DNA of 32,000 nt from Candidatus Saccharimonadota bacterium (GCA_049511795.1 JBEKXS010000001.1:210001-242000), one strand, 5' to 3'. Counted from the first letter of the stretch, positions 7,623-26,597 are shown. Notes: generated by a model from the letters alone, not told the origin. Program-made: numbers and translations.

Positions 7623-8966
7623 TTAGAAAGGCTTCTTTGGCTGAACTTTTTTGTATCTCTTTTTATAGAAAATATAAATTACAAGCAAGGCAACAACAAG
7701 CAAAATCCAGCCAATCCAACCGAAAGATGTTTGTGTTGGTTCCTGACAAATTCCAGAATTAAGGCAGCATGTACCATAATCATTTGTATTGGCAGTTTGC
7801 CCACTGCATGTCTGGTTTGAATTACATACTGTTCCATTAAGCTGTGCACATGTTGTAACAATTGTTGAATTATTTCCTGAAGAAGGATTAAAATTGTTTA
7901 TGAAGTTTAAGTTTAAATCAAAGGATGTAGAAAAATTATCATTGTATGCAGTAACTGTTCCGTTTACTGTTGCTTCGCTGCTGCCCGAAGCTATGTCAAT
8001 TTCTATCTGCTGGTTTGTTCCCGGATTTAATAAACTCACACTGTTTGGATTCAAAATAATATATGGCTCAAGAGAAGAAGACATATTGAATGAAATATCA
8101 CTAATTGTTTCATTTCCTGTATTCGTCAAGTACAAAATTCTTGACATGTTTGAATTTGTCGCTAAAGAAACAGCTACTGAATTTGGCTGAAATGCAATTT
8201 CTGAGGAAGCCGTGCCTTCTGTTCCTGAACCAGTTCCTCCTTGCTGCTGATTTTGGTTTGTATTAAGATAAACAGGCATATCGTATGTTGAATTCAGCGA
8301 AGAAAATTCCAAGTAAACCAAACCACTTTGCGAGAACTGACTTATCTGGAAAGGAATGTTTACGGTTTGTCCTGGATTTAATGTAATTGTGCTTGGATTC
8401 ATTATTGATGATGAATTTCCTGAACTACTGGAACCGAAAAATGAAGAAAAGAAACCAGAGCTACCCGAGTTTGTTGAATTTCCTTGCAATCCATAGGTTA
8501 CTGTTATTTTTTGGTCAATCAAGTTCTGCAGCTGCACTGAAAAATCTGTTTGTGTGTTAATTGCTCCTGGATTTGTTGAGAAAGCGAAAGTATCATTTGT
8601 AATTAAGAAATTCTGTGAAAAGGGAGTATTAATTTGCTGTGTTCCCTGCATATAATTAACTCCTGATATATTCATTGTGTAATTATCTGGAATTTTCCCA
8701 AATAAACTTGCATAAATGTAATAATCATCTCCTATCTTAACAACGCCTTCTGATGCCATCTGTGTTGGTAAATGGCCTTGCCTATAAAATGCAACATTAT
8801 TTGTTGTTATCTGGTTTATGAATGTTCCAGAGATAACTGCAAGAAGAGTTTCTCCTTGTGAAAAGTTTTGGTTCATTGAAATCTGCACTGCTGAAATTGA
8901 AGGGAAAAAAAGCAAGAGAGAAAATACTAATAGAAAAGAAAGTTTTAAGGATTGATTCATATTCAT
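7623..8966 (-). CDS. Secreted N/S/T-rich surface protein with Ig-like (CARDB/NEW3-like) region, one Cys-rich stalk module and a C-terminal TM plus basic tail
   Basis: Signal peptide MNMNQSLKLSFLLVFSLLLFFPSISA|VQ. It has many N-x-S/T sequons. The C-terminus reads CAQLNGTVCNSNQTCSGQTANTNDYGTCCLNSGICQEPTQTSFGWIGWILLVVALLVIYIFYKKRYKKVQPKKPF. Confidence 0.75.
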   Translation of the reverse strand: MNMNQSLKLSFLLVFSLLLFFPSISAVQISMNQNFSQGETLLAVISGTFINQITTNNVAFYRQGHLPTQMASEGVVKIGDDYYIYASLFGKIPDNYTMNISGVNYMQGTQQINTPFSQNFLITNDTFAFSTNPGAINTQTDFSVQLQNLIDQKITVTYGLQGNSTNSGSSGFFSSFFGSSSSGNSSSIMNPSTITLNPGQTVNIPFQISQFSQSGLVYLEFSSLNSTYDMPVYLNTNQNQQQGGTGSGTEGTASSEIAFQPNSVAVSLATNSNMSRILYLTNTGNETISDISFNMSSSLEPYIILNPNSVSLLNPGTNQQIEIDIASGSSEATVNGTVTAYNDNFSTSFDLNLNFINNFNPSSGNNSTIVTTCAQLNGTVCNSNQTCSGQTANTNDYGTCCLNSGICQEPTQTSFGWIGWILLVVALLVIYIFYKKRYKKVQPKKPF

Positions 8967-9007: not shown

Positions 9008-10825
9008 TTACTTGCCCATCTCTTTAAGTTTTCTCAAAACTTCATCAAGTTCTCCCTGAGATTTCGATGGTCTTCTTACAGGCTGAGGTGATGGTCTTTG
9101 TTGTGGAATCATAATTCTTCTTTCAGGCATTCTCTGCATTGGCCTTTGAGGATAATAAGGAGGACCTCTTGGAGGTTGGCCGGGTCTTGCTGCTGATTTT
9201 CCGCCTTCCTTGAATATAATTGCTCTTAGTTTTTTTCTGAAAATTATTCCTAATGCTATAAGAATAATAAGGATTACCAAAATCCAAATCCATAATGAGC
9301 TTCCTCCACTGCTGCTATTTCCAGTTGTTGAAATAACACAGCAAATATCTCCTGAATTGCTGCACTGATAATTGGTTGTTGATTGTTCTCCTGTTGCACA
9401 GCCTCCTGCTCTGCAAATTCCGTTGTTTGATACACAATCTGTTGAAGGCTGAGAGTTTGTTGTTATACATGTTGCACCAACACAGCAAAAACTAGAGGAT
9501 GTTGTGTCTGCTGAATCTTGAATTGCTCCCCCGACACCACATGTCTGCCCTGAAGAACAAAGATTTCCTCCTAATTCAGCGCATGTTTGCTGTGGTGGTT
9601 TTACTGTACAACATACAGATGAAGAAGAGCATTGATAATTTGGTTGTGTATTTGCTGATGAACATGCTGCAGGCAATGTGCATGAATAACCAGCTGTTGT
9701 ACAATCAGGCAAACCAGGACCACCGCCACTTGAAAATTGTCTTGGCCATGATGATGCAAGAACAAATGCAGTGTCTCTTATATTTCCTGAATTCCAGCAA
9801 CCTGCAGGATCCTGAGTTCCAAGAAGCCATGACTGCGCATTTGTTTTTTCCTGAGGGTTTTGATTTGCCAAAGGATAAAGTGCCAAAGCTGTATCATAAT
9901 ATCTATCTCCTGATTGCTGCCAGTATTCGCTGCTTTGCTGCAATGAAAGGAGGGAAGTTTCATATTGTGATTTTGCAGTCAATGCATAGAGAAATGCGTC
10001 TGGCAAATATTGTTGGTTTTCATCAGCCATAACTATCAAATAAGGAAGATAAGCTGAAACATCCTGTCCTGCTGCATTTAATCCAAGTGCTGCCCAAAGA
10101 GTTCCTTCATAATCGCATGTTGTTCCTGTTGAAAAACAGAGCGATTTTACATTTTCAGTTGTTGTCCCACCTGATGCTGCAGAATTTGTTGTATCTGTGA
10201 CATAAATTGTTGATGATGTTGATTTCTGGAAAAGTGTTGTTGTCAAAAAATCTTTGCTGCATGAAATCTGGAAATCTTCGTTGTAACAAGAAGGAGAAAC
10301 TTGAAGCAAATAACCATTCTGTGAAAGAGCTAAACAATTTCCTGCTCCGCTACTTAAAACTTTATTTTGGTCTATGTTAACTGTGTAAGATGGGCTCCCG
10401 CCAGGATATTTTATTGTACAACTTGTTGCATTTCTACTATCAATTTCAAGATACCATACAAGTTGCGTTGGTGTTTGATTTTTTGTGTAAAGCCAATTCT
10501 GTGCACCTGATATATCCCCACCAGAATTGTGCAATGCAAGCAAAACTTGTGATGTTGTCTTGATTGAGCATCCAGATGCAGGCCAGCAGTCTCCTGAACC
10601 AACTGATTTTGCATCGGAAGTAATATCTGACTGGCATTGTCCTATTGCAAGAAGTGAAAATGCCTTTTCTTCATCTGTCAAAGTTGAGCAACTGTTATTA
10701 ATTTTGTTTGAAAGGCACTGATATGCCTTGTCAACTCCTGTAATATTTGATGAACTATCTGCCGCAACAAAAGTCAGACCTAGAAATAATAGTATAAAGA
10801 AAATATATAGGCCTCTTTTTTTCAT
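9008..10825 (-). CDS. Type I membrane surface protein: prenyltransferase/terpene-cyclase-like alpha/alpha-toroid repeats, three Cys-rich modules, TM helix and Pro-rich cytoplasmic tail
   Basis: Signal peptide MKKRGLYIFFILLFLGLTFVAA|DS. Toroid-type repeats include QVLLALHNSGGD..AQNWL, GTLWAALGLNAAG and AQSWLLGTQDPAGCWNSGNIRDTAFVL. Cys modules span aa 375-497, the TM helix aa 511-529, and a 76-aa tail follows. Confidence 0.75.
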   Translation of the reverse strand: MKKRGLYIFFILLFLGLTFVAADSSSNITGVDKAYQCLSNKINNSCSTLTDEEKAFSLLAIGQCQSDITSDAKSVGSGDCWPASGCSIKTTSQVLLALHNSGGDISGAQNWLYTKNQTPTQLVWYLEIDSRNATSCTIKYPGGSPSYTVNIDQNKVLSSGAGNCLALSQNGYLLQVSPSCYNEDFQISCSKDFLTTTLFQKSTSSTIYVTDTTNSAASGGTTTENVKSLCFSTGTTCDYEGTLWAALGLNAAGQDVSAYLPYLIVMADENQQYLPDAFLYALTAKSQYETSLLSLQQSSEYWQQSGDRYYDTALALYPLANQNPQEKTNAQSWLLGTQDPAGCWNSGNIRDTAFVLASSWPRQFSSGGGPGLPDCTTAGYSCTLPAACSSANTQPNYQCSSSSVCCTVKPPQQTCAELGGNLCSSGQTCGVGGAIQDSADTTSSSFCCVGATCITTNSQPSTDCVSNNGICRAGGCATGEQSTTNYQCSNSGDICCVISTTGNSSSGGSSLWIWILVILIILIALGIIFRKKLRAIIFKEGGKSAARPGQPPRGPPYYPQRPMQRMPERRIMIPQQRPSPQPVRRPSKSQGELDEVLRKLKEMGK

Positions 10826-10836
10826 TATATATAGAG

Positions 10837-12216
10837 TTATAGTTTATTTTTAAAATTATCTTTAGTGTAACGTTTTTTTCCGTCTTTACTTGTTCTTTCA
10901 TTAACACGTTTTTCCTCGTGTTCTTCCCTCAAACTTTTTCTTATCATAAAGCTTGAAGGATTTTTGTATCTCAGTTCTTCTTCTGTTGGAACAATTCCAA
11001 TTCCTTTGTAATAATCCTTGTCATAATTTGGAGGAGGAATTGATTTTCCCCTGAAGCTTGCAATCATTTGGGAAACAATGTAGCCTTCTTTAAGAGGCGT
11101 TTCATTTTTTTTGTTCCAGTCATGAAGAATTTTTTCAATGTCTTTCCTGTCCATGCCAACTGAACGGAAAAAATTTGTTATTATGAACAATGCACGCTTT
11201 CTTCCGTCGCCTTTCATTCCTTCCAGAATTTTCTTAATGCTTGGCGGATAATTTTTTTCAGAGATTGTTTTAAGCGAAATCGAAGAAAAACTTTTTCCTT
11301 CATAGTTTTTTTGCTCTTCCTGTTCTGGGTTTTGCGTCTTGTTCCAATCAAGAGCTTCACGTAGCAATTCTGAAGCTTCACCTTCTTTTGCATCTGGCAT
11401 GAAATTTCTTATATCAATTTTGAATGGGTCTGCATCTTTTGGCTGGAACTTTTGTATTATATCTGTTTCAGGCTTAAGCACGACGCTGGCAAGCGCTGTT
11501 TTTTCATGAAGAGAATATGGCATTCTGAATAAATGACGGGGTGAAACAAGAATCAAGTCAGGAACAACTTCTGTTGAAGCTGAAAAATCTTTCACATATT
11601 TGTTTGGTTTTGTAAGCTGTGTTATTTTTTCTGTAAGCTCTTTTTTTGTGAGATCCATTACATATTTTGTTATAATTCTTGGCCATTCGGGAAACATATC
11701 AGAAGTTTTTATTCCATGAATTTCTTTTGGAAAAGCTTTCCATGGAACAATGATGTGAAATCCTTTGCTGCCAGAAAATTTTATTCCGACGTTTTTAACG
11801 CCATGAAATTTTAGAACTTTGAAAATTAGCTCTGCCATAATCTTGCTGTAATCAAGATATTTTGAATCAATATCGAGCAAAAGGTCCCAGCCTGTTCTCA
11901 GCTCGTTTAATTGTTTGGAGGTCATTCCTGTTGAAATTTTTAATGGGTCTGCCCAAATTTCCTCTGAACAATGGAAAGAAGTCGCTCCATTTTTCACCAT
12001 TTCAAAAATATCTCCGGGATACTGAAAGGTGTCTGGCCTTTTTCCAAAGCTTTCCATCATATAGCTAGGCGCTACTTCTCTGTTGGCTGAAAAGGAGAAA
12101 ATGGCTTTTTGAATGTCTTTTCTTGAGTAATAAAGATGGGTTATTTTCCTTATTCTTTCCTCTTTAATGCTGGAAGAATCTGGTTTATTGTCTGGTTTGA
12201 CACTGGAATTTTCCAT
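10837..12216 (-). CDS. priS: Archaeo-eukaryotic DNA primase: PriS catalytic domain fused to a PriL-C-terminal-like helical domain
   Basis: AEP motifs are DLLLDIDSK (DxD), SGSKGFHIIVPW (SGxRGxH) and RHLFRMPYSLHEKT. The C-terminal PPSIKKILEGMKGDGRKRALFIITNFFRSVGMDRKDIEKIL resembles the PriL CTD motif PPC...L......R..L..FL...G. Confidence 0.85.
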   Translation of the reverse strand: MENSSVKPDNKPDSSSIKEERIRKITHLYYSRKDIQKAIFSFSANREVAPSYMMESFGKRPDTFQYPGDIFEMVKNGATSFHCSEEIWADPLKISTGMTSKQLNELRTGWDLLLDIDSKYLDYSKIMAELIFKVLKFHGVKNVGIKFSGSKGFHIIVPWKAFPKEIHGIKTSDMFPEWPRIITKYVMDLTKKELTEKITQLTKPNKYVKDFSASTEVVPDLILVSPRHLFRMPYSLHEKTALASVVLKPETDIIQKFQPKDADPFKIDIRNFMPDAKEGEASELLREALDWNKTQNPEQEEQKNYEGKSFSSISLKTISEKNYPPSIKKILEGMKGDGRKRALFIITNFFRSVGMDRKDIEKILHDWNKKNETPLKEGYIVSQMIASFRGKSIPPPNYDKDYYKGIGIVPTEEELRYKNPSSFMIRKSLREEHEEKRVNERTSKDGKKRYTKDNFKNKL

Positions 12217-13035: not shown

Positions 13036-13045
13036 TTTATAAATA
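13036..13045 (+). promoter_or_regulatory. TATA box (tttataaata) for the 13065-20510 operon; spacing implies a leaderless or near-leaderless mRNA
   Basis: The 10-mer tttataaata is centred about 25 nt upstream of the ATG at 13065. The identical 10-mer occurs upstream of the S-layer gene and of sepF. Confidence 0.55.
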
Positions 13046-13064
13046 AAATTTCCGTGTATAAAAC

Positions 13065-13847
13065 ATGGAAAAGAGGGGTCAGGTGACTTTATTTATTATC
13101 ATTGCAATTGTAATAATCTTGGCAGCTGTTCTTGTTTATTTTTTTATTCCAAAGGCCTCAACGCAAACAGCTTTTGATGTAAAAAATCCTCAGGGTTTTA
13201 TCCAATCATGCCTTCAAAAAACAATTGAAGACAAAATAACAACTCTTTCCCTTCAGGGAGGAAGTTTGGATCCGGAATTTTATTTTACATACAATGGAAA
13301 CAATGTCCAGTATCTTTGCTACACAAATGAATACTATAAAACATGTGTTGTTCAGCCACCAATTCTCACGCAGCAGTATGTTGAATCAGAAATAAAAAAT
13401 TCTATTACAAGTGATGTTAGTTCCTGTTTTGACAACCTGCAGCAGAATTACAAAAATGACGGTTACACTGTAAACCTTGACACAGGAACAACAGTTGTTG
13501 AAATTCTTCCAAATAAAGTTGTAACAGACTTTCAAAATTATACTTTGACTGTTACAAAAGGGTCAACATCTACATATAATTCATTTAGTGTTGTTCTGAA
13601 CAATAATCTTTATGAATTAATGGGTATAGCTAATAATATTGTTGAATGGGAAGCAACATATGGTGACGTTTCAACATCAACATACATGACATATTATGAG
13701 GATTTGAAAGTTGAAAAAATGCTACAGAATGACGGAACAAAAATTTACATTTTGACAGACAGAAATACAGGAGATAAATTTGAGTTTGCTTCAAGAAGCG
13801 TTGTATATCCTCCTGGATACAGTTCAGGGGCATTGCCTACAGCTTAA
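13065..13847 (+). CDS. Class III signal peptide (prepilin-like) protein, 260 aa
   Basis: The N-terminus MEKRG|QVTLFIIIAIVIILAAVLVYFFI has a short basic head, then [KR]G|Q, then about 20 hydrophobic residues. Confidence 0.7.
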   Translation: MEKRGQVTLFIIIAIVIILAAVLVYFFIPKASTQTAFDVKNPQGFIQSCLQKTIEDKITTLSLQGGSLDPEFYFTYNGNNVQYLCYTNEYYKTCVVQPPILTQQYVESEIKNSITSDVSSCFDNLQQNYKNDGYTVNLDTGTTVVEILPNKVVTDFQNYTLTVTKGSTSTYNSFSVVLNNNLYELMGIANNIVEWEATYGDVSTSTYMTYYEDLKVEKMLQNDGTKIYILTDRNTGDKFEFASRSVVYPPGYSSGALPTA

Positions 13848-13850
13848 AAA

Positions 13851-15551
13851 ATGATAAAAGAGGACAATTTCAAGGAAAAAGCAGAAAATTATACTTTTAG
13901 TAAGAAAACATTAGTTGCTTTATTCCTGATTGCAGGTTTTTTAGTTTTAACAATTTTATTTTTTACAAATAAAGTTTCTGCAGATACGCCGACAAATTCA
14001 TATTGCTGTGAAAAAACAACAAGCAATCAATGGTGCCAGAATGTAAATGACCCTTTTTTATGTGCAACAGGTAATGGATTAAGTTCTCCTGCCCCAACTT
14101 CCTGTCAGTCAACAAGCTATTGTGAATTAGGAACATGTGTTAATGGTCAGGAGGGAACATGCTTGCCTAATGTGCCTGGGCAAGTTTGCCAAAATAGTGG
14201 GGGTACATGGATTAATGGTCAACCTGCAAATATTCCTCAATGCCAGCTTGGATGCTGTCTTATTGCAGATCAGGCAGCTTTTGTCACACAAACAAGATGT
14301 AGCTTTCTTTCAGCTCAAGCAGGAGTAAATTCAACATTCAGGACAGATATAACAGATGAACAAACATGTATTGCAAGCGCAAATCCTCAGGTAGATGGTG
14401 CATGTGTTTTGGATACTGGCTTTTCAAGAACATGCAGGAGATTAACAAGAGGGGAATGCCAGCAATTGCAATCATCAAGTAATGGAAATACGACTGTTGA
14501 ATTTCATGAAGGACTTTTATGCTCTGCAACAAGTCTTGCAACAAATTGCGGACAAACAAAAAATACAGAATGTGTTCCTGGCAAAGACCAAGTTTATTTT
14601 GTTGATTCCTGCGGAAACATGGCAAATGTTTATGACGAATCAAGAATAAATGATCCATCATACTGGACAAATATTCAAGATCCTTCTACAAGTTGCAACT
14701 TTGGTTCAAGCAATGCAAATTCTGCAACCTGCGGAAATTGTGATTATATTTCAGGAAGCGTTTGCAAAGCATTTCAAAGAGGAAGTCAACAAACACAAAC
14801 TGCTCCCAAAAATGGAAATTTTGTATGTGCTGATTTAAGCTGCCATTTCAATGGACAAACTTATGAGCAAGGGGCAAGCTGGTGTATTAGTAATACTGCA
14901 CAGAGGAACCAAAATCTTCCTGGAAGCGAAGATGCTGTGCAGAAATGTTTTGATGGAGAAGTCACAACTGAATTATGCGACCCATTTAGAAATCAAATTT
15001 GTCTTCAAACTACAAGCAATGGAAATTTCCCTGTTGCAAATTGTGTTGTTAATAGATGGCAGGATTGTACAACTATAGATAATCAGCAGGATTGCTTGGA
15101 TACGAATCAAAGAGATTGTCAGTGGGTAAATATAACAAGCACAACAGATAGTAATGGGAATGCATTAACATTAAGCAGCAATGGAAGTATTCTTGTTCCC
15201 GGAGAAGGTAAAGCAGCTGCATGTGTTCCAAAATATTCTCCAGGATTTGAATTTTATAATTCAACAGATTCCAGCACTGTCAATCCGGAAGCAATATGTG
15301 CACAGGCAAACCAAAATTGTGTTGTCAAATTTACAAAAAAACTTTTAAGTGATACATGGAAATGTGCAGGAAACTGCCAGTGTATTGGTTTGAAGCAGGA
15401 TGATACAATTCCTGGTGGTGTTCAGGGTGTTTCACAATGGGTCAGCCAGAGGATGGGAATGTGTGTTTCCCTTGGAGATTGTGGTAATCTTACAAATTAT
15501 ATTGGAAAACCAGGATACCCAACAACAGCAGTAACAATATCAAAAGCTTAA
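13851..15551 (+). CDS. Secreted cysteine-rich protein (more than 40 Cys in 566 aa)
   Basis: N-terminal hydrophobic segment KKTLVALFLIAGFLVLTILFFTNKVSA|DTP. Cys residues are spread along the whole length, with almost no predicted cytoplasmic character. Confidence 0.75.
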   Translation: MIKEDNFKEKAENYTFSKKTLVALFLIAGFLVLTILFFTNKVSADTPTNSYCCEKTTSNQWCQNVNDPFLCATGNGLSSPAPTSCQSTSYCELGTCVNGQEGTCLPNVPGQVCQNSGGTWINGQPANIPQCQLGCCLIADQAAFVTQTRCSFLSAQAGVNSTFRTDITDEQTCIASANPQVDGACVLDTGFSRTCRRLTRGECQQLQSSSNGNTTVEFHEGLLCSATSLATNCGQTKNTECVPGKDQVYFVDSCGNMANVYDESRINDPSYWTNIQDPSTSCNFGSSNANSATCGNCDYISGSVCKAFQRGSQQTQTAPKNGNFVCADLSCHFNGQTYEQGASWCISNTAQRNQNLPGSEDAVQKCFDGEVTTELCDPFRNQICLQTTSNGNFPVANCVVNRWQDCTTIDNQQDCLDTNQRDCQWVNITSTTDSNGNALTLSSNGSILVPGEGKAAACVPKYSPGFEFYNSTDSSTVNPEAICAQANQNCVVKFTKKLLSDTWKCAGNCQCIGLKQDDTIPGGVQGVSQWVSQRMGMCVSLGDCGNLTNYIGKPGYPTTAVTISKA

Positions 15552-15558
15552 GAATAAA

Positions 15559-17976
15559 ATGTTAATAAATAGAAGCAGAAAAAAAAGAACAAGTGAAAAA
15601 TCAGTTGCATTGTTTGAAATAATCACAATTGTTCTCAGCACGATTGCATTCATTTATCTTGTTGCAATGACAATACCTAGTGTATCTGCTAGTTGTACAA
15701 ATACTGTGACTAGCGGATGTATAAGCCTCCCCGCACCTTACACCGGAAGCGGACCCGATCCTGTAACAATAGACTCAGATGGATCTGCAAATAGTTTTTG
15801 TAATAAACTTGGTATAACATCAGCTTCATTAGAAGACCAGGTATGTCAGATTTGTAGTGGTAATCATTATATAAATGTGCCCCCGTCTACATGCGGTCCA
15901 GTACAATCTGCACCACCAACACCTTCTGGAACTCCTATTGGAACTACTATCGGAAATGGTGCTTTAGGTGCTTTGACAAACAAGGGACTTGATTGGACAT
16001 TTCGTCACACTGGACTAACTGGAACAACAACTCCCACTCCTACGCCAACCCCCACTCCTTCACCAACTCCTACACCAACACCAAATCCTACGGAAGCTGC
16101 AACAGGATTAAAAGGATTTTTTGTAAATCCTATTTCTTTTCTTACAAAGAAAGGCCCAATAGTAGGTGGACAACAAACATATTACACTTTAAGCATTTCA
16201 CAAATAGTCACAACAGCGGCTGTTGCTACAGGACTTTATTATGTCACTCAATGGGGTTTACAACAAGCTGGATTAAATAAAGAAACAGCGCATGCAGCAG
16301 GATTAGGTGTTAGTCTTGGTTATTTTGCTGGGCATATTGCAAGCAAGCTTGGGATAAAAATTTTAGGATTTGGATCTCTGGGAATAGGAATTGCTGTAGG
16401 AGTTCTTGTTTTCATTCTTACATTTAAAAGTACTAAAACACAAAAATATCAATTCAACTGCTATGTATGGCAAGCACCTACTGGTGGACAAAATTGTGCA
16501 CAATGCAACCAAGGAGATATTCCATGCACAGAATACACATGCAAAAGCCTTGGGCAAGGATGTGTTCTTGTAAATCAAGGAACAAATCAGGAATTATGTG
16601 TTTGGAACAACAGCAAAGATGTTGCACCTCCTATAATGACTCCCTGGACAGATGTCTTGACAAATGGATACAAATATATTCCTGATAATCAACAAGCTCC
16701 AAATGATAATGGAGTAAGAATTGTTCCAATAAATAACAATAGCGGATGTGTTAACTCTAGCAGCGGGGTAACTTTGGGATTAACTTTAGACAAACCAGGA
16801 ATATGCAAATGGGATGTGCAAAGCCTTTCTAGTTTTGATGCTATGCAATTTTATTTCAATTCAAGCCCTACTGCAAAATACAATCACAGCCAATATTTCC
16901 CTATTCCTGACCCAAATGCACTTGCTTCAGAAAATGTAACTCTTGAAAATGGAAATAATTATGCATTTTACACAAGATGCCAAAGCACAAACGGATATTC
17001 TAGTGTTGGGAATTTTGTTTTCAAATTCTGTGTAAATCCAAGTCCTGACACAACAGCTCCTGCAATTGTTGAAACTAGTATTATCAATGGAAGTTCTATA
17101 GCATTCAATCAAAATAATACTGGCTTAATGACAGTTTATGTGCAGGATTCAAACACAGTAAACTGCAAATGGAGCAAAACAGACCAGGATTACAGCACAA
17201 TGGAAAACAACATGAACTGCCCTACAAGCATTTTCAACGCAAATTCGAAAAATGTTTATGCATGCACTACAACTCTGACTGGATTGCTAAATTCACAGAA
17301 CAATAACTTTTATTTCAGATGTCAGGATAATTCTCCTCAGCAAAATGTAAATTCCCAGTCTTATGTATATGTTTTGAAGGGAACGCAGACACCTCTTATC
17401 ATAACTTCAATAGGACCAAATGGAACAATAATGAATGCAACAAGTGTTATAAAATCAACATTGACAGCAACAACTTTCGGGGGCTCTGACAATGGAAATT
17501 CACAATGTTCTTTCAGCCCTACAAACAGCAGTTACGTTACATTCTTCAGCGACGCTGCAAACACAACAAACTACCAGCATTCACAGGATCTTTACCTTGT
17601 TCCTGGAAATTACCAGTATTACATACAATGCAGAGATTTGGGAGGAAACACAGCTACAAACATGACAAGCTTCACTGTCCAATCAGATACAACGCCTCCA
17701 ATTGTTGTGAGAGCATATAACCAAAACAACAATCTGAATATTATAACTGATGAAAATTCAACATGTGTTTACAACACTGATAGTAATATTGGCTGTACTT
17801 ACAATTTTGCAGATGGACAATCAATGCAAAATGTTCAGGGTAATATGAACCAAGTGCCATGGGATACAACAAAGACATTCTACATAAAATGCATAGATAG
17901 CTTTGGAAACCAGCCAGACACTGACGCATGTAGCATAATTGCAAGCCCTTACACTATCAGCAATAGCAGTCAATAA
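15559..17976 (+). CDS. Large membrane/surface protein: prepilin-like N-terminus, Cys-containing domain, (T/S)P linker, internal hydrophobic hairpin, and four tandem Ig-like Cys-containing repeats
   Basis: N-terminus ...KKRTSEKS|VALFEIITIVLSTIAFIYLV, with Glu at +5. Linker TPTPTPTPTPSPTPTPTPNPT. Hydrophobic block AAGLGVSLGYFAGHIASKLGIKILGFGSLGIGIAVGVLVFILTF. Repeat units are bounded by DVAPPI / DTTAPAIV / TPLII / DTTPPIVV. Confidence 0.75.
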   Translation: MLINRSRKKRTSEKSVALFEIITIVLSTIAFIYLVAMTIPSVSASCTNTVTSGCISLPAPYTGSGPDPVTIDSDGSANSFCNKLGITSASLEDQVCQICSGNHYINVPPSTCGPVQSAPPTPSGTPIGTTIGNGALGALTNKGLDWTFRHTGLTGTTTPTPTPTPTPSPTPTPTPNPTEAATGLKGFFVNPISFLTKKGPIVGGQQTYYTLSISQIVTTAAVATGLYYVTQWGLQQAGLNKETAHAAGLGVSLGYFAGHIASKLGIKILGFGSLGIGIAVGVLVFILTFKSTKTQKYQFNCYVWQAPTGGQNCAQCNQGDIPCTEYTCKSLGQGCVLVNQGTNQELCVWNNSKDVAPPIMTPWTDVLTNGYKYIPDNQQAPNDNGVRIVPINNNSGCVNSSSGVTLGLTLDKPGICKWDVQSLSSFDAMQFYFNSSPTAKYNHSQYFPIPDPNALASENVTLENGNNYAFYTRCQSTNGYSSVGNFVFKFCVNPSPDTTAPAIVETSIINGSSIAFNQNNTGLMTVYVQDSNTVNCKWSKTDQDYSTMENNMNCPTSIFNANSKNVYACTTTLTGLLNSQNNNFYFRCQDNSPQQNVNSQSYVYVLKGTQTPLIITSIGPNGTIMNATSVIKSTLTATTFGGSDNGNSQCSFSPTNSSYVTFFSDAANTTNYQHSQDLYLVPGNYQYYIQCRDLGGNTATNMTSFTVQSDTTPPIVVRAYNQNNNLNIITDENSTCVYNTDSNIGCTYNFADGQSMQNVQGNMNQVPWDTTKTFYIKCIDSFGNQPDTDACSIIASPYTISNSSQ
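16030..16092 (+). repeat. Coding low-complexity (Thr/Ser-Pro)n linker
   Basis: act ccc act cct acg cca acc ccc ... encodes TPTPTPTPTPSPTPTPTPNPT in frame within the 15559-17976 ORF. Confidence 0.9.
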
Positions 17977-18008
17977 AAATTTATAAGTTCTAGTTTTCTT
18001 GTTTAAGA

Positions 18009-18533
18009 ATGAAGAATAAAAGAGGCATGCAGAGAAAGGGGCAAACAGAACTTTCATTTAGCATGATTTTTTCAATAATTCTTATCATCTTTTTTCTGGT
18101 TGCCGCATTTTATGCGATAAAAACATTCCTTGGATTTAGAGACACTGCGACAGCTGGAAAATTCTACAGTGATTTGCAGTCAGACATTGACAATATCTGG
18201 GGAAACAGCGCATTCAGCTCTGGCCAGCATGATTACATTGTTCCTGGAGGAATAAATCTGGTTTGTTTTGTTGATTTTTCTTCGCCTGCAACAGGACCTA
18301 ATTCGGGCATTTATACAAAGTTAAAATTTGGAACATACAATGACAGTGATAATCTTGTTGTCTATCCTTTACAGAATAATAATTTTGATTCGAAAACAAT
18401 AAATCACATAGACTTGTCTGGGATAACTTCCGGAGAGAATCCATATTGCATTCAGACAAGCAATGGAAAAGTTTCTATGATATTGAAAAAAGATTACAGT
18501 CAATCTCTGATAACAGTAGCAAGAGTGGGCTGA
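18009..18533 (+). CDS. Class III signal peptide (prepilin-like) protein, 174 aa
   Basis: MKNKRGMQRKG|QTELSFSMIFSIILIIFFLVAAFYAI. Confidence 0.7.
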   Translation: MKNKRGMQRKGQTELSFSMIFSIILIIFFLVAAFYAIKTFLGFRDTATAGKFYSDLQSDIDNIWGNSAFSSGQHDYIVPGGINLVCFVDFSSPATGPNSGIYTKLKFGTYNDSDNLVVYPLQNNNFDSKTINHIDLSGITSGENPYCIQTSNGKVSMILKKDYSQSLITVARVG

Positions 18534-18540
18534 TTTTAAA

Positions 18541-19482
18541 ATGTTAAACAGAAAACAAAAAAGAGGGTTTCTGCAGATTCCTTTTTCATGGCTTTTCGCG
18601 ATAATAGTCGGTGCGATAATAATCTTCTTTGCAATATATGCTGCTGTAAAATTAATAGGAACAGAAACAACTGTCTCAACAGCGCAAACAGGCAGCCAGA
18701 TAAGTGTTCTTTTGAATCCTCTTGAAACAAGCTTTGGGCAGGAACAGGTTACAACATTGTCAATACCTGTTGAAAGTCTTCTCAGCAACAATTGTGACAA
18801 TGCAGGAAATTTCGGAAGCCAACAGATTGTTGTTTCACAGATGTCTGGAGGGAAATGGACAGATACAAACATCGCGCCAACATCACATAATAAATATATT
18901 TTTTCAAATGATAGTGTTGAAGGGAAAAATTTCTATCTTTTTTCAAAGCCTCTTGAACTACCTTTCAAGGTCAGCGACTTGATTTATCTGACTTCTGCAA
19001 ATGACAATTACTGTTTTGTTTCTGCACCACAACCAGTTCAGGCTGAGCTTTCCAATTTAAAGCAGGGGAATGTTTTCACAGCAAACTGCCCTTCAAACAG
19101 CATCAATGTTTGTTTCTCTCAGGCATCAAAATGCGACATTGTTGTTAACCAAAATCAACTTTCTGTAACGAAAGACGGGCAAACAATGTATTATGAAACA
19201 GATGCATTGATGTATGGGGCAATTTTTTCAAGCCCTGATGTTTACGAATGCCAAGTCCAAAGATTAATGGAGAGGGTTAATAAGCTTTCAATGATTTATA
19301 GCGACAAGGAAAATATTATTTCTGTAAAAGGATGCCCTGTCGATACTAGTTTAAGCGCTGACCTTTTGAATATTGGGCAGGCTGCAACTTCTGTAAAAAC
19401 TTCTGCTGATTTGATAAATATTGCTTCTGCATCAGACAATGCAGACGGAGAAAACAACATGACCTCATGCCGTTTATGGTAA
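18541..19482 (+). CDS. Class III signal peptide (prepilin-like) protein, 313 aa
   Basis: MLNRKQKRG|FLQIPFSWLFAIIVGAIIIFFAIYAAV. Confidence 0.65.
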   Translation: MLNRKQKRGFLQIPFSWLFAIIVGAIIIFFAIYAAVKLIGTETTVSTAQTGSQISVLLNPLETSFGQEQVTTLSIPVESLLSNNCDNAGNFGSQQIVVSQMSGGKWTDTNIAPTSHNKYIFSNDSVEGKNFYLFSKPLELPFKVSDLIYLTSANDNYCFVSAPQPVQAELSNLKQGNVFTANCPSNSINVCFSQASKCDIVVNQNQLSVTKDGQTMYYETDALMYGAIFSSPDVYECQVQRLMERVNKLSMIYSDKENIISVKGCPVDTSLSADLLNIGQAATSVKTSADLINIASASDNADGENNMTSCRLW

Positions 19483-19483
19483 A

Positions 19484-20020
19484 ATGAAAACAAAAACATC
19501 AAAAAACAAGAGAGCGCAGATGAAGATACAGCAAATGGCTTTCATGCTGATAGCTGTGACTTTGTTCTTCGTGATTGCAGGATTATTCATACTTGTGATA
19601 AATTTCTCAGGAGTCAAGCAATCTGCAAAGCTTATTGACGAGGAAAATGCCTTAACCCTTGTCTCAAAAATTGCTGACTCTCCTGAATTTTCTTGTGGAA
19701 ATGCTTTTGACCAGCCATTGACTAGCTGCATTGATACAGACAAAGTAATGGCTTTGGAGAATCATATTCAGGATTACAGGAATTTCTGGGGAATTTCTGG
19801 CTTGCAGATAGCATGGGTTTATCCAAATAATTCAACATTAGCAAACACCTCCTGCACAACAGGAAACTATCCTGCATGCGGTAAAATAACTTTAATTCCT
19901 ACATCAAACGGGACAGGTGTTCCAAACTTTGTCAATTTGTGCAGAAGAGAAATAGACAATAATTCAATACCTTACAATCAATGTGATTTAGGGAAGGTGA
20001 TAGTTGTTTACAATGGTTGA
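19484..20020 (+). CDS. Class III signal peptide (prepilin-like) protein, 178 aa
   Basis: MKTKTSKNKRA|QMKIQQMAFMLIAVTLFFVIAGLFILV. Only 1 nt separates it from the preceding stop. Confidence 0.65.
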   Translation: MKTKTSKNKRAQMKIQQMAFMLIAVTLFFVIAGLFILVINFSGVKQSAKLIDEENALTLVSKIADSPEFSCGNAFDQPLTSCIDTDKVMALENHIQDYRNFWGISGLQIAWVYPNNSTLANTSCTTGNYPACGKITLIPTSNGTGVPNFVNLCRREIDNNSIPYNQCDLGKVIVVYNG

Positions 20021-20027
20021 AATTAAA

Positions 20028-20510
20028 ATGCTAAATAAGCAGAAAAATGGTCAGGAAGAAATGGTTGGTTTTGCAGTAATTGTTATACTGGTTTCATTAA
20101 TCCTGGTTTTTTTCCTTGTTTTCTCGCTGAATACAAAGCCACAAACAAACAGTTACGAGGTTTCAAGTTTCATGCAGTCAGCACTTCATTATACAACAGC
20201 ATGCCAAATCAATGGAAATTATGTGTCTGTAAACGACCTTATTAGCTCATGTGTACAGAATGAAACCTGCTCAAATCAGCAGAATTCATGCGACATACTA
20301 AATCAAACACTTAGTGGAATAATGGATAAAAGCTGGCCTTCTGGCCAGAATTTCCCTGTAAAAGGATACAACTTAACAGTTATCTCTAATTTTGGCAATG
20401 TCTTGTCAATACAGAAAGGGAACATAACAGCAACTTACAAAGGAGCGCCGCCTGAGCTGCTTCCTACTTCAATAGCAAAAATAACTGTTTATGTGACTAT
20501 TTATTACTAG
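20028..20510 (+). CDS. Class III signal peptide (prepilin-like) protein, 160 aa
   Basis: The track start at 20004 is a TTG. The ATG at 20028 gives MLNKQKNG|QEEMVGFAVIVILVSLILVFFLVF, 7 nt after the upstream stop. Confidence 0.65.
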   Translation: MLNKQKNGQEEMVGFAVIVILVSLILVFFLVFSLNTKPQTNSYEVSSFMQSALHYTTACQINGNYVSVNDLISSCVQNETCSNQQNSCDILNQTLSGIMDKSWPSGQNFPVKGYNLTVISNFGNVLSIQKGNITATYKGAPPELLPTSIAKITVYVTIYY

Positions 20511-20512
20511 AA

Positions 20513-20866
20513 CTAAATCTTAAGGTTTATTGTCAAAGTATCTATCAAAAGCTCTGGCTTGTGCCTTATTCTGTTCTTTGTCTTTTCCTCTATCAGTTCT
20601 ATGAAACCAAAGCGCTCAAGAAGCTTTATGTCCTCATTGACTGTCTTGAAATCACGGCCAAGCTTCTTTGCAAGCTCATAAATAGATCCTGGTTTCTCTG
20701 TCTTTAAAACATGAAGAAGTCTTGCCCTTTCATTGCTTAATAAATGCCTTAAAGCAGCAAGTCCTTCAAAGTCAAAGTCCTGCTTAAGGAAAAGGCCTTT
20801 TTTCAGTATAGAGAATGCGCCGCTTGAATCAGTTATTGTTACTTCCCTTGTTTTTGAGCTTGCCAT
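20513..20866 (-). CDS. Winged-helix (ArsR/MarR-like) transcriptional regulator
   Basis: LLSNERARLLHVLKTEKPGSIYELAKKLGRDFKTVNEDIKLLERFGFIEL is an HTH plus wing. It is convergent with the pilin-like operon (2 nt between stops) and divergent from the S-layer gene. Confidence 0.55.
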   Translation of the reverse strand: MASSKTREVTITDSSGAFSILKKGLFLKQDFDFEGLAALRHLLSNERARLLHVLKTEKPGSIYELAKKLGRDFKTVNEDIKLLERFGFIELIEEKTKNRIRHKPELLIDTLTINLKI

Positions 20867-24112: not shown

Positions 24113-24718
24113 ATGAGAAGAATAGTTTCAAGAGAAGACGAAGCAAAGAAGAAAAAAAGAAACCAGGTAATACTTGCTATTGTGCTTGGAGCTGTTATGG
24201 TACTTGGTGTTTTTGGGATTGCATTTCAAAATAGTATATTTGGAGGCAATAACAATGTTGGTGGGAATTATGTTAATCAAACAACTTACAATGGTTATAC
24301 TTTTACAAACCAAAATGGTCTTTGGTATATAGGAAATTTTTCTTTCACTTATCTTCCAAGTGAAGTTAATTATTCAACAATTGGAGTAAAATCTGCAGCA
24401 AGCTCTTATCAGCAAAATCCTTTGTACATTTATTCAGAAGATTCTGGAGCACAGGCAGAGATAACAACAAATCTTGGAACACTTGCCGAGAGAGTTCAGC
24501 AAGCATGTCCTTCTCCAACAACAGGAGTAATAGCAAATAATTGCGATGCTAGTCTTCCTGTAAAAACATGCAGCGATAACTTTATAATAATCCAGCAAAG
24601 TAATAATAATGAAAGCATAACACAGTCAAATGGCTGTGTTATTATCCAAGGTCAGCAGCAGGATTTGACAAAGCTTGCTGATGCATTTTTATACAAAACA
24701 TTGGGAGTAAAAAATTAA
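24113..24718 (+). CDS. N-terminally membrane-anchored extracellular protein (paralogue 1)
   Basis: ...KKKKRNQVILAIVLGAVMVLGVFGIAF is followed by a Cys-containing N/S/T/Q-rich ectodomain. Confidence 0.65.
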   Translation: MRRIVSREDEAKKKKRNQVILAIVLGAVMVLGVFGIAFQNSIFGGNNNVGGNYVNQTTYNGYTFTNQNGLWYIGNFSFTYLPSEVNYSTIGVKSAASSYQQNPLYIYSEDSGAQAEITTNLGTLAERVQQACPSPTTGVIANNCDASLPVKTCSDNFIIIQQSNNNESITQSNGCVIIQGQQQDLTKLADAFLYKTLGVKN

Positions 24719-24719
24719 T

Positions 24720-25370
24720 ATGGCAAGTCATGAAGATAGGATTAAAAAAGAAAATAAAACTCTGAGAAATATTATTATTGGAATTGCTATCTTATGCATT
24801 TTAATAATTTTATTTGTTTTTATGTCAAATCGGACTCAATCATCTTCTTTCACTTACAAAGGAGTTAAATTTGAAACTGTAAAGTTCTGTGATTCAGGGC
24901 CACCGTGCCTGATTTTGTACAATACTTCTCTTCCTGTAAGGTCAAATGGAACAGATTATCTTGTTTCCAGTGTTGCTCAAAGCACAAACAATTACATTTT
25001 TTATCTTAGAAATGACCCAAGAACACTTAATGTGGGCTTCAACGGAACTCCTGTATACAACAGCAATGTTGTTCTCAAATATGATGCGCCTTTTGTCTGC
25101 AATGATAGTGCTTTGGCAGGAGCAAATTTTAACTTATTATACCAAACACTTGGTGCAAATGTGATAAACGACCAAAATGCAACATGCGACCCTTATAACA
25201 GATACACTTACATTGATTTTTTGCCTGGAAATGAGACAAAAATAGAACAAGTTGGGCCTGCCTGCTATAATATTTACATTAAAGGTTGTGAAGTTTTGAA
25301 AGGGACAGAGAAATACATGATTGAGACTTTTGTACAGGTAAATGATGAATTATACAATCAAAGCTATTAG
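24720..25370 (+). CDS. N-terminally membrane-anchored extracellular protein (paralogue 2)
   Basis: ...NKTLRNIIIGIAILCILIILFVFMS. It shares TY(N/K)G..F just after the TM helix and LY(K/Q)TLG(V/A) later with the upstream ORF. Only 1 nt separates it from the upstream stop. Confidence 0.65.
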   Translation: MASHEDRIKKENKTLRNIIIGIAILCILIILFVFMSNRTQSSSFTYKGVKFETVKFCDSGPPCLILYNTSLPVRSNGTDYLVSSVAQSTNNYIFYLRNDPRTLNVGFNGTPVYNSNVVLKYDAPFVCNDSALAGANFNLLYQTLGANVINDQNATCDPYNRYTYIDFLPGNETKIEQVGPACYNIYIKGCEVLKGTEKYMIETFVQVNDELYNQSY

Positions 25371-26549: not shown

Positions 26550-26597
26550 GATTGACAAAGTGGAAACCTATTTAAATAATTTAACATTATCAATTAA

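What the first reader, a model, noticed from the sequence alone, without database searches (positions are those of the whole stretch)
13036..20510. Seven-gene operon of prepilin-like proteins with a Cys-rich secreted protein and a giant membrane protein, and no pilus motor in sight
Seen in sequence:
- Seven same-strand ORFs are separated by only 1-32 nt behind a single TATA box.
- Six of the seven begin with a short basic head followed by [K/R/N]-[G/A/S] | [Q/F/V] and about 20 hydrophobic residues: KRG|QVTLFIII, EKS|VALFEIIT (Glu at +5), RKG|QTELSFSMIF, KRG|FLQIPFSW, KRA|QMKIQQMAF and KNG|QEEMVGFAV.
- This is the architecture of class III (type IV prepilin/archaellin) signal peptides.

Why it is unusual:
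- The proteins are much larger (160-805 aa) than structural major pilins.
- One partner is a >40-Cys secreted protein.
- The window contains no PilB/FlaI-type ATPase, PilC/FlaJ platform or PibD/FlaK peptidase.

Inference: this looks like a dedicated pilin-primed surface complex, either a minor-pilin/tip-adhesin-like assembly or a pseudopilus. In a putative episymbiotic small-genome archaeon it could mediate host-cell contact. I do not recognise the globular domains of any of the seven proteins.
Basis: partly seen in the sequence, partly recalled or inferred. Interest (0 to 1): 0.85.

Follow-up and report, generated by a model that had tools for sequence, protein, structure and literature searches.

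The report
Conserved pilin-like surface operon in Pacearchaeota
A block of seven unannotated genes, kept in the same order in at least 80 species of the tiny Pacearchaeota archaea, encodes five proteins with prepilin-type N-termini, a 43-cysteine secreted protein and a large membrane protein, and probably builds a cell-surface complex that has never been described.

Summary
The seven ORFs are real. All are "hypothetical" in NCBI and have no significant Pfam, NCBIfam or PDB match.

- **Organism:** a Candidatus Pacearchaeota (DPANN) chromosome.
- **Prepilin-like proteins:** five of the seven (g1, g4, g5, g6, g7) carry a conserved prepilin-type N-terminus. Across 37-118 relatives, position -1 is only G, A or S. 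Positions -2/-3 are K/R, and +1 is almost always Q. The next ~22 residues are more conserved than the ectodomains.
- **g3 and g2:** g3 is ambiguous and has internal membrane helices. g2 has an ordinary Sec signal.
- **Synteny:** gene order is conserved in 80 species. The block is really two units, g1-g2-g3 and g4-g7, each behind a TATA-like motif.
- **Paralogue:** in 24 of 53 species, g2 and g3 are fused into one protein next to a g1 paralogue. The three therefore most likely act together.
- **Missing machinery:** no pilus ATPase, platform or prepilin peptidase lies within 52 kb here or within ±10 kb in 80 species. The rest of the genome could not be read.
- **Structure:** AlphaFold models of g1 and g5 are confident but match no solved fold.

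Verdict: a new variant of type IV pilin-like surface systems. The N-terminal signal is well supported; cleavage, assembly and function are inferred. Interest is moderate.

The parts
13036..13043 (+). TATA-like motif TTTATAAA, 29 nt upstream of the g1 start codon
   Evidence: Read directly from the sequence. This is a consensus match only, with no transcript data.
13065..13847 (+). g1: 260-aa prepilin-like protein (MEKRG|QVTLFIII...) with an alpha/beta ectodomain holding 4 invariant Cys
   Evidence: ORF. It has 1298 homologues at E<=1e-3 and 4147 representatives of 50% clusters. Position -1 is G92/A15/S10 and +1 is Q in 117 of 118. The AF2 model has pLDDT 88.1 with no PDB fold match. A g1 paralogue travels with the fused g2-g3 protein.
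13851..15551 (+). g2: 566-aa secreted protein with 43 Cys and an ordinary Sec-type signal peptide (...NKVSA|D)
   Evidence: The signal h-region is poorly conserved (0.19, against 0.42 for the rest). No Pfam, NCBIfam or PDB match. Residues 80-553 align with residues 116-571 of a fused 1505-aa paralogue (E 4e-52).
15559..17976 (+). g3: 805-aa membrane protein. Order of parts: N-terminal helix, variable region with a Pro/Thr linker, a hydrophobic Gly-rich block (about residues 205-292, 2-4 helices), then a conserved Cys-rich and Ig-like C-terminal ectodomain.
   Evidence: Some homologues carry Pfam PF19077, recalled as the Ig-like family Big_13. Residues 210-804 align with residues 770-1414 of the fused paralogue (E 2e-39). 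The N-terminus shows only a weak class III pattern, with +5 Q32/E14.
17980..17987 (+). Second TATA-like motif TTTATAAG, 29 nt upstream of g4; probable start of a second transcription unit
   Evidence: Sequence. The g3|g4 junction is the long, often-interrupted one in other species (median gap 171 nt; 16 of 42 loci hold inserted ORFs).
18009..18533 (+). g4: 174-aa prepilin-like protein (RKG|QTELSFSMIFSIILII...) with 2 invariant Cys
   Evidence: Position -1 is G27/A14/S2 and +1 is Q in 37 of 43. Positions +4 to +16 are nearly invariant. The N-terminal profile matches g5 at 95.7% probability. No PDB or family match.
18541..19482 (+). g5: 313-aa prepilin-like protein (KRG|FLQIPFSWLFAIIVG...) with 8 conserved Cys
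   Evidence: Position -1 is G34/A7. It has 813 homologues. The AF2 model has pLDDT 86.8 and shows helix 15-58, then a beta sheet, then a helical bundle; residues 41-70 are low-confidence. No PDB fold match.
19484..20020 (+). g6: 178-aa prepilin-like protein (KRA|QMKIQQMAFMLIAVTLFF...) with 6 invariant Cys
   Evidence: Position -1 is A25/G9/S4 and +1 is Q in 38 of 38. The residues upstream of the internal Met are conserved, so the longer start is the real one. No PDB match.
20004..20510 (+). g7: 165-168-aa prepilin-like protein (KNG|QEEMVGFAVIVILV...) with 4 invariant Cys. The start is TTG at 20004 or ATG at 20013.
   Evidence: Position -1 is A18/G16/S3, and Q-E-E at +1 to +3 is invariant in 37 of 37. 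The N-terminal profile matches g1 at 86.5% probability. No PDB match.
20513..20866 (-). Conserved convergent neighbour: a winged-helix regulator (Pfam HVO_A0114 family). It lies between g7 and the S-layer gene; its role in the system is unknown.
   Evidence: Pfam PF25212, E 1.3e-18. It follows g7 in 35-36 loci.

Best explanation
**What it is.** The region holds two adjacent, co-oriented gene sets that are part of the conserved core chromosome of Pacearchaeales. It sits between the primase and PCNA genes and the S-layer gene.

- **Set 1 (g1-g2-g3):** a prepilin-like protein (g1), a Sec-secreted 43-Cys protein (g2), and a polytopic membrane protein with a large Ig-like ectodomain (g3).
- **Set 2 (g4-g7):** four prepilin-like proteins, three small (165-178 aa) and one of 313 aa (g5), comparable to a minor-pilin set.

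**Proposed mechanism.**
1. g1 and g4-g7 are inserted into the membrane.
2. A class III (prepilin) signal peptidase, encoded elsewhere, cuts them after the G/A/S that follows the K/R residues.
3. Their near-invariant hydrophobic N-terminal helices pack together into a short pilus-like stem or priming complex.
4. g1 couples this stem to the g2-g3 ectodomain complex, which stays anchored in the membrane through g3.
5. The whole forms a disulfide-stabilised surface structure used for cell-cell or surface contact, or for envelope architecture.
6. If it is a true filament, its motor (and perhaps the major pilin) is encoded elsewhere, as in other archaea.

**Shown:** the motif and its conservation, the synteny, the g2-g3 fusion and the co-duplication with g1, and the extracytoplasmic character (even numbers of invariant Cys).

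**Inferred:** cleavage, helix bundling, the g1-g2-g3 contact, and the function.
For: - **ORFs and spacing:**
- **Class III pattern across orthologues:** position -1 is only G/A/S in g1 (92/15/10), g4 (27/14/2), g5 (34/7), g6 (9/25/4) and g7 (16/18/3). Positions -2/-3 are K/R. Position +1 is Q in 117/118, 37/43, 38/38 and 37/37 (g1, g4, g6, g7).
- **Conservation of the N-terminal segment:** the hydrophobic segment is more conserved than the ectodomain (0.52-0.77 against 0.34-0.52). The Sec signal of g2 (0.19) and the internal helices of g3 (0.18) are not.
- **Profile-profile similarity:** the five families resemble each other only in the N-terminal 30-50 residues, as pilins do.
- **Synteny:** found in 80 species-level genomes. 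In 32 of 40 loci that reach far enough, g4-g7 all follow in order.
- **Fusion and co-duplication:** the g2-g3 fusion with its own g1 paralogue occurs in 24 of 53 loci.
- **Extracytoplasmic location:** each ectodomain has an even number of invariant Cys.
- **Precedent for the motif:** the short signal ending in Gly with +1 Gln is the pattern of EppA-processed pilins of M. maripaludis, whose pilin genes lie in at least four loci apart from the ATPase (PMC3875500).
- **Precedent in the lineage:** type IV filament system 1 is reported in DPANN (bioRxiv 10.64898/2026.04.22.720090). Nanoarchaeota and Woesearchaeota carry FlaI/J/K (PMC8407392, PMC6142677).
- **A further candidate pilin:** a class III-like 185-aa protein lies 7.4 kb outside the window in the same genome.
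Against: - No ATPase, platform or prepilin peptidase lies within about 52 kb here. None lies within ±10 kb of the operon in 80 species, where no T2SSE Walker A motif was found (the only GxGD match lies inside a fused g3-family protein).
- One groundwater study states that type IV pilus components are missing from DPANN genomes (bioRxiv 10.1101/2020.05.14.094862).
- No class III, pilin-N or archaellin N-terminal model appears among the Pfam and NCBIfam hits, even at E up to 10, on the window proteins or their orthologues.
- AF2 models of g1 and g5 join the membrane helix to the head through a low-confidence linker. Foldseek finds no pilin fold.
- g3 cannot leave the membrane.
- The ectodomains are as conserved as the primase. 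That fits a housekeeping machine better than a host-specific adhesin.
- C-terminal membrane anchors of neighbouring surface proteins are also well conserved (0.44-0.58), so conservation of a helix is not unique to pilins.
Confidence: 0.55

Rival explanations
1. The N-termini are uncleaved signal anchors. The seven proteins form a membrane-embedded envelope complex (for example S-layer anchoring, envelope biogenesis or division) that has nothing to do with type IV filaments. On this reading, the K/R-G/A/S-Q motif is a juxtamembrane contact site.
For: - No peptidase or motor is seen anywhere in reach.
- One study reports type IV pilus parts as missing in DPANN (bioRxiv 10.1101/2020.05.14.094862).
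- No pilin N-terminal model hits.
- The membrane helix is separated from the head by a disordered linker in the g1 model.
- Conservation is high, and the block sits among core genes next to the S-layer gene, a pacearchaeosortase and its PACE-CTERM substrate.
- g3 is polytopic.
Against: - A strict G/A/S at one position, preceded by K/R and followed by Q and a near-invariant hydrophobic stretch, recurs in five non-homologous ectodomain families. This is the signature of prepilin peptidase substrates and is hard to explain otherwise.
- Sec signals and g3's internal helices in the same operon are poorly conserved.
Confidence: 0.2
2. A bindosome-like arrangement. The class III signals serve only to process and anchor functional ectodomains at the cell surface, as with the Sulfolobus sugar-binding proteins and BasABC. 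No extended filament is made, and g2-g3 forms the working (binding or enzymatic) head.
For: - The ectodomains are large, non-pilin and strongly conserved.
- There is no classic pilin head and no fold match.
- No major-pilin-sized gene lies in the operon.
- g3 stays in the membrane.
Against: - No substrate-binding, transporter or enzyme family is detectable in any of the seven proteins.
- No ABC transporter lies nearby.
- The bindosome itself needs an ATPase and a platform protein (BasEF; from established knowledge of that system), which are also unseen here.
Confidence: 0.15
3. g1 is a membrane-anchored MltG/YceG-like glycan-cleaving enzyme, and the operon attacks or remodels a cell wall (its own or a host's).
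For: - Nine of 17 g1 orthologues give weak NCBIfam hits to TIGR00247 (MltG) over the C-terminal half, with best E 2.1e-4.
- JGI names one orthologue YceG.
Against: - The scores are 14-20 bits against a cut-off of 103.
- Pfam YceG does not hit.
- The g1 profile finds no MltG among PDB sequences.
- Foldseek finds no lysozyme-like fold.
- The matched region is mostly beta strand in the model.
Confidence: 0.03

Closest known systems
Archaeal type IV pilin-like proteins of the Epd system (Methanococcus maripaludis EpdA-C and MMP1283, processed by EppA; type IV filament 'system 1')
   Same: - A short basic signal ends in a small residue.
- Gln at +1 is followed by about 20 hydrophobic residues.
- Several pilin-like genes of different sizes lie in a row.
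- The pilin loci are apart from the ATPase and platform genes (PMC3875500; bioRxiv 10.64898/2026.04.22.720090).
   Different: - There is no +5 Glu, except Q/E in g3 and E at +2/+3 in g7.
- No DUF361/Class_IIIsignal model appears among the Pfam hits.
- The ectodomains are unrelated orphans.
- No peptidase gene lies in the cluster, whereas the Epd cluster carries its own.
Bacterial minor-pilin plus PilY1 operons (fimU-pilVWXY1E) and the type II secretion pseudopilins GspH-K (comparison from general knowledge)
   Same: - Four or five small pilin-like genes lie in a row with a large non-pilin surface protein.
- They are encoded apart from the motor.
- They are thought to prime assembly and carry an adhesin.
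   Different: - There is no sequence or fold homology.
- The large partner here (g3) is a polytopic membrane protein, and g2 is a Cys-rich secreted protein.
- This is an archaeal envelope with an S-layer and no outer membrane.
Sulfolobus bindosome (BasABC plus sugar-binding proteins with class III signals; comparison from general knowledge)
   Same: Class III signals sit on large non-pilin ectodomains together with small pilin-like helpers. The result is a surface complex rather than a long filament.
   Different: - No binding-protein or transporter families are found here.
- No BasEF-like ATPase or platform lies nearby.
- There is no homology.
Archaellum stator proteins FlaF/FlaG (comparison from general knowledge)
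   Same: These proteins have a pilin-like N-terminal helix but stay at the membrane and contact the S-layer instead of entering the filament. The operon here sits next to the S-layer gene.
   Different: - No FlaF/FlaG family match.
- No archaellum genes are nearby.
- There are five such proteins here instead of two.

Membership tests
Proteins with class III (prepilin-type) signal peptides | Short basic N-region ending in K/R, followed by a small residue (G/A/S) at -1 | tested here: met
   Column counts over 37-118 orthologues. Position -1 is only G/A/S in g1, g4, g5, g6 and g7, and -2/-3 are mostly K/R. g3 is looser (A/S/G/T/L). g2 does not have the feature.
Proteins with class III (prepilin-type) signal peptides | About 20 uncharged hydrophobic residues directly after the cleavage site, conserved between paralogous families | tested here: met
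   Hydrophobic segments are seen. Their mean column identity is 0.52-0.77, higher than that of the ectodomains. The N-terminal profiles resemble each other (g4-g5 95.7%, g1-g7 86.5% probability).
Proteins with class III (prepilin-type) signal peptides | Recognised by curated N-terminal models (recalled from memory as Pfam Class_IIIsignal/DUF361 and Pilin_N, and the NCBIfam archaellin N-terminal model) | tested here: not met
   No such model appears among the hits at E up to 1-10 for the window proteins or for 17-31 orthologues of g1, g4, g6 and g7. The models are short, and HMMER's filters drop weak hits, so this is a weak negative.
Proteins with class III (prepilin-type) signal peptides | Cleavage by an A24-family prepilin peptidase encoded in the same genome | not testable with these tools
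   Only about 52 kb of this genome and ±10 kb in 80 other species could be read, and none holds a peptidase. The rest of the genome is out of reach.
Type IV filament (pilus) subunits | Long N-terminal helix whose C-terminal half is packed into a beta-sheet head (the pilin fold) | tested here: inconclusive
   The g5 model has one helix at 15-58 followed by a sheet, but residues 41-70 have pLDDT of only 55-63. The g1 model has helix 4-27, a disordered stretch at 28-41, then a separate alpha/beta domain.
Type IV filament (pilus) subunits | Structural similarity to solved pilins or pseudopilins | tested here: not met
   Foldseek against the PDB gives a best E of 6.6e-3 (TM 0.12) for g1 and 0.29 for g5, with no pilin among the hits. 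Profile searches of g1, g4, g6 and g7 against PDB sequences find nothing.
Type IV filament (pilus) subunits | Genomic or genetic link to an assembly ATPase and a platform protein | tested here: not met
   There is no link in cis, either in this genome or in 80 species. A link in trans could not be tested.
EppA-type (DUF361) pilins of the Epd system | Gln at +1 and Glu at +5 (PMC3875500) | tested here: inconclusive
   Gln at +1 is met in g1, g4, g6 and g7 (g5 has Y/F/A). Glu at +5 is not met: g1 has F, g4 and g5 have S, g6 has Q, g7 has V, and only g3 has Q/E.
MltG/YceG endolytic transglycosylases (considered for g1) | Score above the family cut-off and a lysozyme-like fold | tested here: not met
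   Scores are 14-20 bits against a cut-off of 103. There is no Pfam YceG hit, no reciprocal PDB hit and no fold match.

The most novel reading that the evidence does not exclude
Pacearchaeales really lack a type IV filament motor. This operon would then be a self-contained, motor-independent pilin-based organelle. The five processed pilin-like proteins would bundle on the membrane-helix block of g3, which would act as their platform, and display the disulfide-rich g2-g3 head through the S-layer. That would make it a core envelope structure of these episymbionts, used to dock onto or bridge to host cells. It would be a new way of using prepilin-like proteins.
Probability: 0.15. Interest if true: 0.85.

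Novelty: new variant of a known kind. Interest (0 to 1): 0.55.

Why it matters
Pacearchaeota are among the most abundant uncultivated DPANN archaea in groundwater and lakes. How their cells are built, and how they touch other cells, is unknown.

This operon gives seven concrete, order-wide conserved candidates for a surface machine. The g1 family alone has over 4000 representatives of 50% clusters in public data. All seven are currently annotated as hypothetical.

The operon also bears on a disagreement in the literature over whether these lineages have type IV filament systems at all. If the peptidase and motor are present elsewhere, the block adds a new set of minor-pilin-like and accessory families to archaeal type IV filament systems. 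If they are absent, pilin-like proteins are being used in an undescribed way.

Tried and rejected
**Family and structure searches that found nothing**
- Pfam and NCBIfam scans of all seven proteins gave no significant hit.
- Scans of 17-31 orthologues of g1, g4, g6 and g7 gave no significant hit either. Only weak hits appeared:
  - MltG for g1, rejected (see the rival explanations).
  - DUF7287 and DUF7248 for g4, and DUF7289 for g7. No paper explains these families.
- Sequence and profile searches against the PDB for g1, g2, g3, g4, g6 and g7 found nothing.
- Foldseek of the g1 and g5 models found nothing.

**Attempts to find the machinery**
- Extending the window by 10 kb on each side showed only housekeeping genes. 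One look-up failed because the edge ORF is called differently in the records.
- A motif scan for the T2SSE Walker A box and the A24 GxGD motif in all ORFs of the 80 related loci found no T2SSE match. The one GxGD match lies inside a fused g3-family protein.
- A metagenome scan with the 185-aa pilin-like protein found outside the window returned no relative.
- Literature searches for Pacearchaeota pili or pilins found nothing specific.

**Other**
- The g3 homologue search was crippled by its low-complexity Pro/Thr linker and scored only 35 proteins.
- A mobile-element origin is rejected. Composition is uniform, and the block sits in conserved core synteny between primase/PCNA and the S-layer gene.
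- RNA features are rejected. The only Rfam/ARAGORN hit is a tRNA-Pro at 30730-30802.

Full report
**1. What is in the sequence**

The window is a piece of a Candidatus Pacearchaeota (DPANN) chromosome. The identical g1 protein is NCBI MGA2130276.1, [quoted passage not shown]. g2-g7 are ABSG05_01520-01545, all named hypothetical.

Their gaps are 3, 7, 32, 7 and 1 nt, and g6/g7 overlap by 17 nt. g2 has 43 cysteines.

The surrounding genes are as follows.
- Upstream lie a fused PriS-PriL primase and PCNA.
- Downstream lie a convergent winged-helix regulator and an S-layer gene.
- Further on lie a pacearchaeosortase and its PACE-CTERM putative S-layer substrate.

None of the seven proteins has a significant Pfam or NCBIfam match.

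**2. Is the prepilin-like pattern real?**

I fetched 80 loci from 80 species-level genomes using a g1 alignment. I then clustered their ORFs with those of the window and counted residues column by column.

| Family | -1 residue counts | +1 residue |
|---|---|---|
| g1 | G92 / A15 / S10 | Q 117 of 118 |
| g4 | G27 / A14 / S2 | Q 37 of 43 |
| g5 | G34 / A7 | Y / F / A |
| g6 | A25 / G9 / S4 | Q 38 of 38 |
| g7 | A18 / G16 / S3 | Q 37 of 37 |

- In these five families the residue before the hydrophobic stretch is never anything but G, A or S. The two residues before it are mostly K or R.
- The following 22 residues are more conserved than the ectodomains: mean pairwise column identity is 0.52-0.77 against 0.34-0.52. 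The Sec signal of g2 (0.19) and the internal helices of g3 (0.18) are the least conserved parts of their proteins.
- Profile-profile comparison shows that the families resemble each other only in the first 30-50 residues (g4-g5 95.7%, g1-g7 86.5% probability). This is the pattern seen among pilins.
- A short signal ending in Gly with Gln at +1 is what EppA-processed pilins of Methanococcus maripaludis look like. Those pilins also have Glu at +5, which is missing here (PMC3875500).
- g3 is a weaker case. Its -1 residue is A/S/G/T/L and its +5 residue is Q32/E14. Its N-terminal helix (0.36) is less conserved than its C-terminal domain (0.44).
- g2 has a plain Sec signal.

The count is therefore five clear, one doubtful and one not, rather than six of seven.

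**3. Anatomy of the block**

The seven genes keep their order in every species where the contig reaches far enough.
- Of 40 loci with at least 7 kb after g2, 32 hold g4, g5, g6 and g7 in order.
- Seven more hold part of the set.
- One holds none.

The block is two units, not one.
- The same TTTATAA motif lies 29 nt upstream of both g1 and g4.
- Across species the g3|g4 gap is long (median 171 nt, against 1-9 nt elsewhere) and is often interrupted. g4-g7 are almost never separated (3 of 37 loci).
- The inserted genes are MNT/HEPN and PIN toxin-antitoxin pairs and small lipoprotein-like genes. They are not pilus parts.

A paralogous module links g1, g2 and g3.
- It lies between PCNA and g1 in 24 of 53 loci.
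- It consists of a g1 paralogue (28% identity, still K-R-S|Q-V-T-I-F) and a 1000-1500-aa protein.
- The N-terminal half of that protein aligns with g2 (E 4e-52). Its C-terminal half aligns with g3 from the hydrophobic block onward (E 2e-39).
- This fusion, and its co-duplication with g1, argue that g1, g2 and g3 work as one complex.

The layout of g3 is as follows.
- An N-terminal helix.
- A variable region with a Pro/Thr linker.
- A poorly conserved Gly-rich hydrophobic block of 2-4 helices.
- A conserved Cys-rich C-terminal ectodomain. Some homologues carry Pfam PF19077 in this part, which I recall as an Ig-like family (Big_13).

g3 therefore stays in the membrane. Every ectodomain has an even number of invariant cysteines, which fits disulfide-bonded extracellular domains.

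**4. Structure**

- The AlphaFold2 model of g1 (85-sequence alignment) has pLDDT 88.1 and pTM 0.76. It shows a membrane helix at 4-27, a disordered stretch at 28-41, and a compact alpha/beta domain.
- The model of g5 (92 sequences) has pLDDT 86.8 and pTM 0.80. It shows one helix at 15-58, then a beta sheet and a helical bundle, but residues 41-70 are of low confidence.
- Foldseek against the PDB finds nothing for either (best E 6.6e-3 and 0.29).
- Sequence or profile searches of g1, g2, g3, g4, g6 and g7 against PDB chains also find nothing.

The heads are therefore orphan folds as far as these libraries go, and membership of the pilin fold is not shown.

**5. The missing machinery**

- No ATPase, platform or A24 peptidase is in the window.
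- None is in the 10 kb beyond each end, which holds ribosomal proteins, FtsZ, SepF, RuBisCO and tRNA synthetases.
- None is in the ±10 kb flanks of 80 species.
- The tools did not let me read the rest of the genome, so the key test (peptidase present or not) remains open.

The literature is divided.
- One groundwater study says type IV pilus components are missing in DPANN (bioRxiv 10.1101/2020.05.14.094862).
- Others report FlaI/J/K or type IV pilus systems in Nanoarchaeota, Woesearchaeota and other DPANN (PMC8407392, PMC6142677, PMC8561730).
- A 2026 census places type IV filament system 1 in DPANN (bioRxiv 10.64898/2026.04.22.720090).
- Nothing I could find deals with Pacearchaeota pilins.

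Separation of pilin genes from the motor is normal in archaea (PMC3875500). The same genome also encodes at least one more class III-like protein of typical pilin size, 7.4 kb outside the window (L009:2019-2576, KKG|SMEMSVGTMVTIVLL...).

**6. Most likely mechanism and rivals**

- **Best reading (0.55).** Five prepilin-like proteins are cut by a class III signal peptidase and bundle through their N-terminal helices into a short stem or priming complex. g1 ties this to a membrane-anchored, disulfide-rich g2-g3 head. The function is surface or cell-cell contact, or envelope architecture. I put the class III signal itself at about 0.8, the g1-g2-g3 complex at about 0.7, and the adhesion or host-contact role at about 0.35.
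- **Rival 1 (0.2):** uncleaved signal anchors in an envelope complex unrelated to pili.
- **Rival 2 (0.15):** a bindosome-like display system without a filament.
- **Rival 3 (0.03):** an MltG-like enzyme role for g1, suggested by weak NCBIfam hits. The reciprocal and structural checks do not support it.

The strong conservation of the ectodomains, about equal to that of the primase, speaks for a housekeeping machine rather than a fast-evolving host-specific adhesin.

**7. Comparison with known systems, and novelty**

- The system works most like an archaeal Epd-type minor-pilin set, or a bacterial minor-pilin/PilY1 operon. It also has features of the Sulfolobus bindosome and of FlaF/FlaG.
- It shares no detectable homology with any of these beyond the N-terminal signal.
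- Several defining features of pilus subunits were tested and not met: curated models, fold match, and a link to a motor in cis.
- I therefore file it as a new variant of a known kind (prepilin-like surface systems), not as a member of a named family.
- The family is large. g1 has 1298 homologues in 90% clusters and 4147 representatives of 50% clusters at E<=1e-3. g5 has 813 homologues.
- Interest is moderate (0.55). The block is a clean, order-wide, wholly unannotated surface operon in an abundant uncultivated lineage, but pilin operons without a nearby motor are not in themselves surprising.

Noticed in passing
window 26001-26558 (-) and 27229-28947 (-): These are a pacearchaeosortase (NCBIfam NF033505, 209 bits, cut-off 80) and a PACE-CTERM putative S-layer protein (NF033506, 278.6 bits, cut-off 110). 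Together they form a protein-sorting pair close to the operon.
   Followed up: partly
window 7623-8966 (-) and 9008-10825 (-): Two secreted, Cys-rich proteins (447 and 605 aa) carry a C-terminal membrane anchor and a basic tail. They are conserved upstream of the primase in 26-46 of the related loci and have no family match. They may be sortase substrates.
   Followed up: partly
window 10837-12216 (-): A single 459-aa protein has both small-subunit and large-subunit primase domains. It is a fused PriS-PriL primase.
   Followed up: no
L009:2019-2576 (+), about 7.4 kb beyond the window start: A 185-aa protein (ABSG05_01370) has a class III-like N-terminus (KKG|SMEMSVGTMVTIVLL...) and what looks from its sequence like a beta-rich C-terminal part. 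It is a candidate stand-alone pilin. It has no family match, and a metagenome scan found no close relative.
   Followed up: partly
related loci, e.g. L045 14938-15571, L063 10768-11420, L031 15474-16432, L062 15318-15683: Nucleotidyltransferase/HEPN and PIN toxin-antitoxin pairs are inserted between g1|g2, g2|g3 and g3|g4 in many species. They are almost never inserted inside g4-g7.
   Followed up: partly
related loci L021 8335-8847, L029 9285-9947, L050 9377-9946, L052 12653-13138, L069 12275-12703 and 14227-14856, L081 9388-10164: Small proteins with a lipobox-like Cys and a shared motif C-(I/M)-T-P-(Q/E)-G-R-Q-F are inserted after g2 or after the fused paralogue. Their role is unknown.
   Followed up: no
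window 6613-7032 (+): A conserved 139-aa basic protein carries the motifs GARFE..VR, GFPDF and E.K, which look like an archaeal Hjc-type nuclease. There is no Pfam or NCBIfam hit.
   Followed up: no
window 24113-24718 (+) and 24720-25370 (+): Two adjacent signal-anchor proteins lie downstream of the S-layer gene. Their N-termini are K-rich and end in R-N before the hydrophobic stretch (KKKKRN|QVILAIVLG...). This is pilin-like except for Asn at -1. Only one other orthologue was in reach.
   Followed up: partly
L007 6275-8676 (just beyond the window end) and L009 3951-5252: An IS240-family transposase sits next to an N6/N4 methyltransferase-Mrr fusion, between the FtsZ and ribosomal protein genes. 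A RuBisCO large-subunit gene lies upstream of the window.
   Followed up: no
g1 orthologues (P0022, P0042, P0013 and others), residues about 135-246: There are recurrent but very weak NCBIfam hits to MltG/YceG (TIGR00247, best E 2.1e-4, 14-20 bits against a cut-off of 103). Pfam, PDB profile search and Foldseek do not confirm them.
   Followed up: yes
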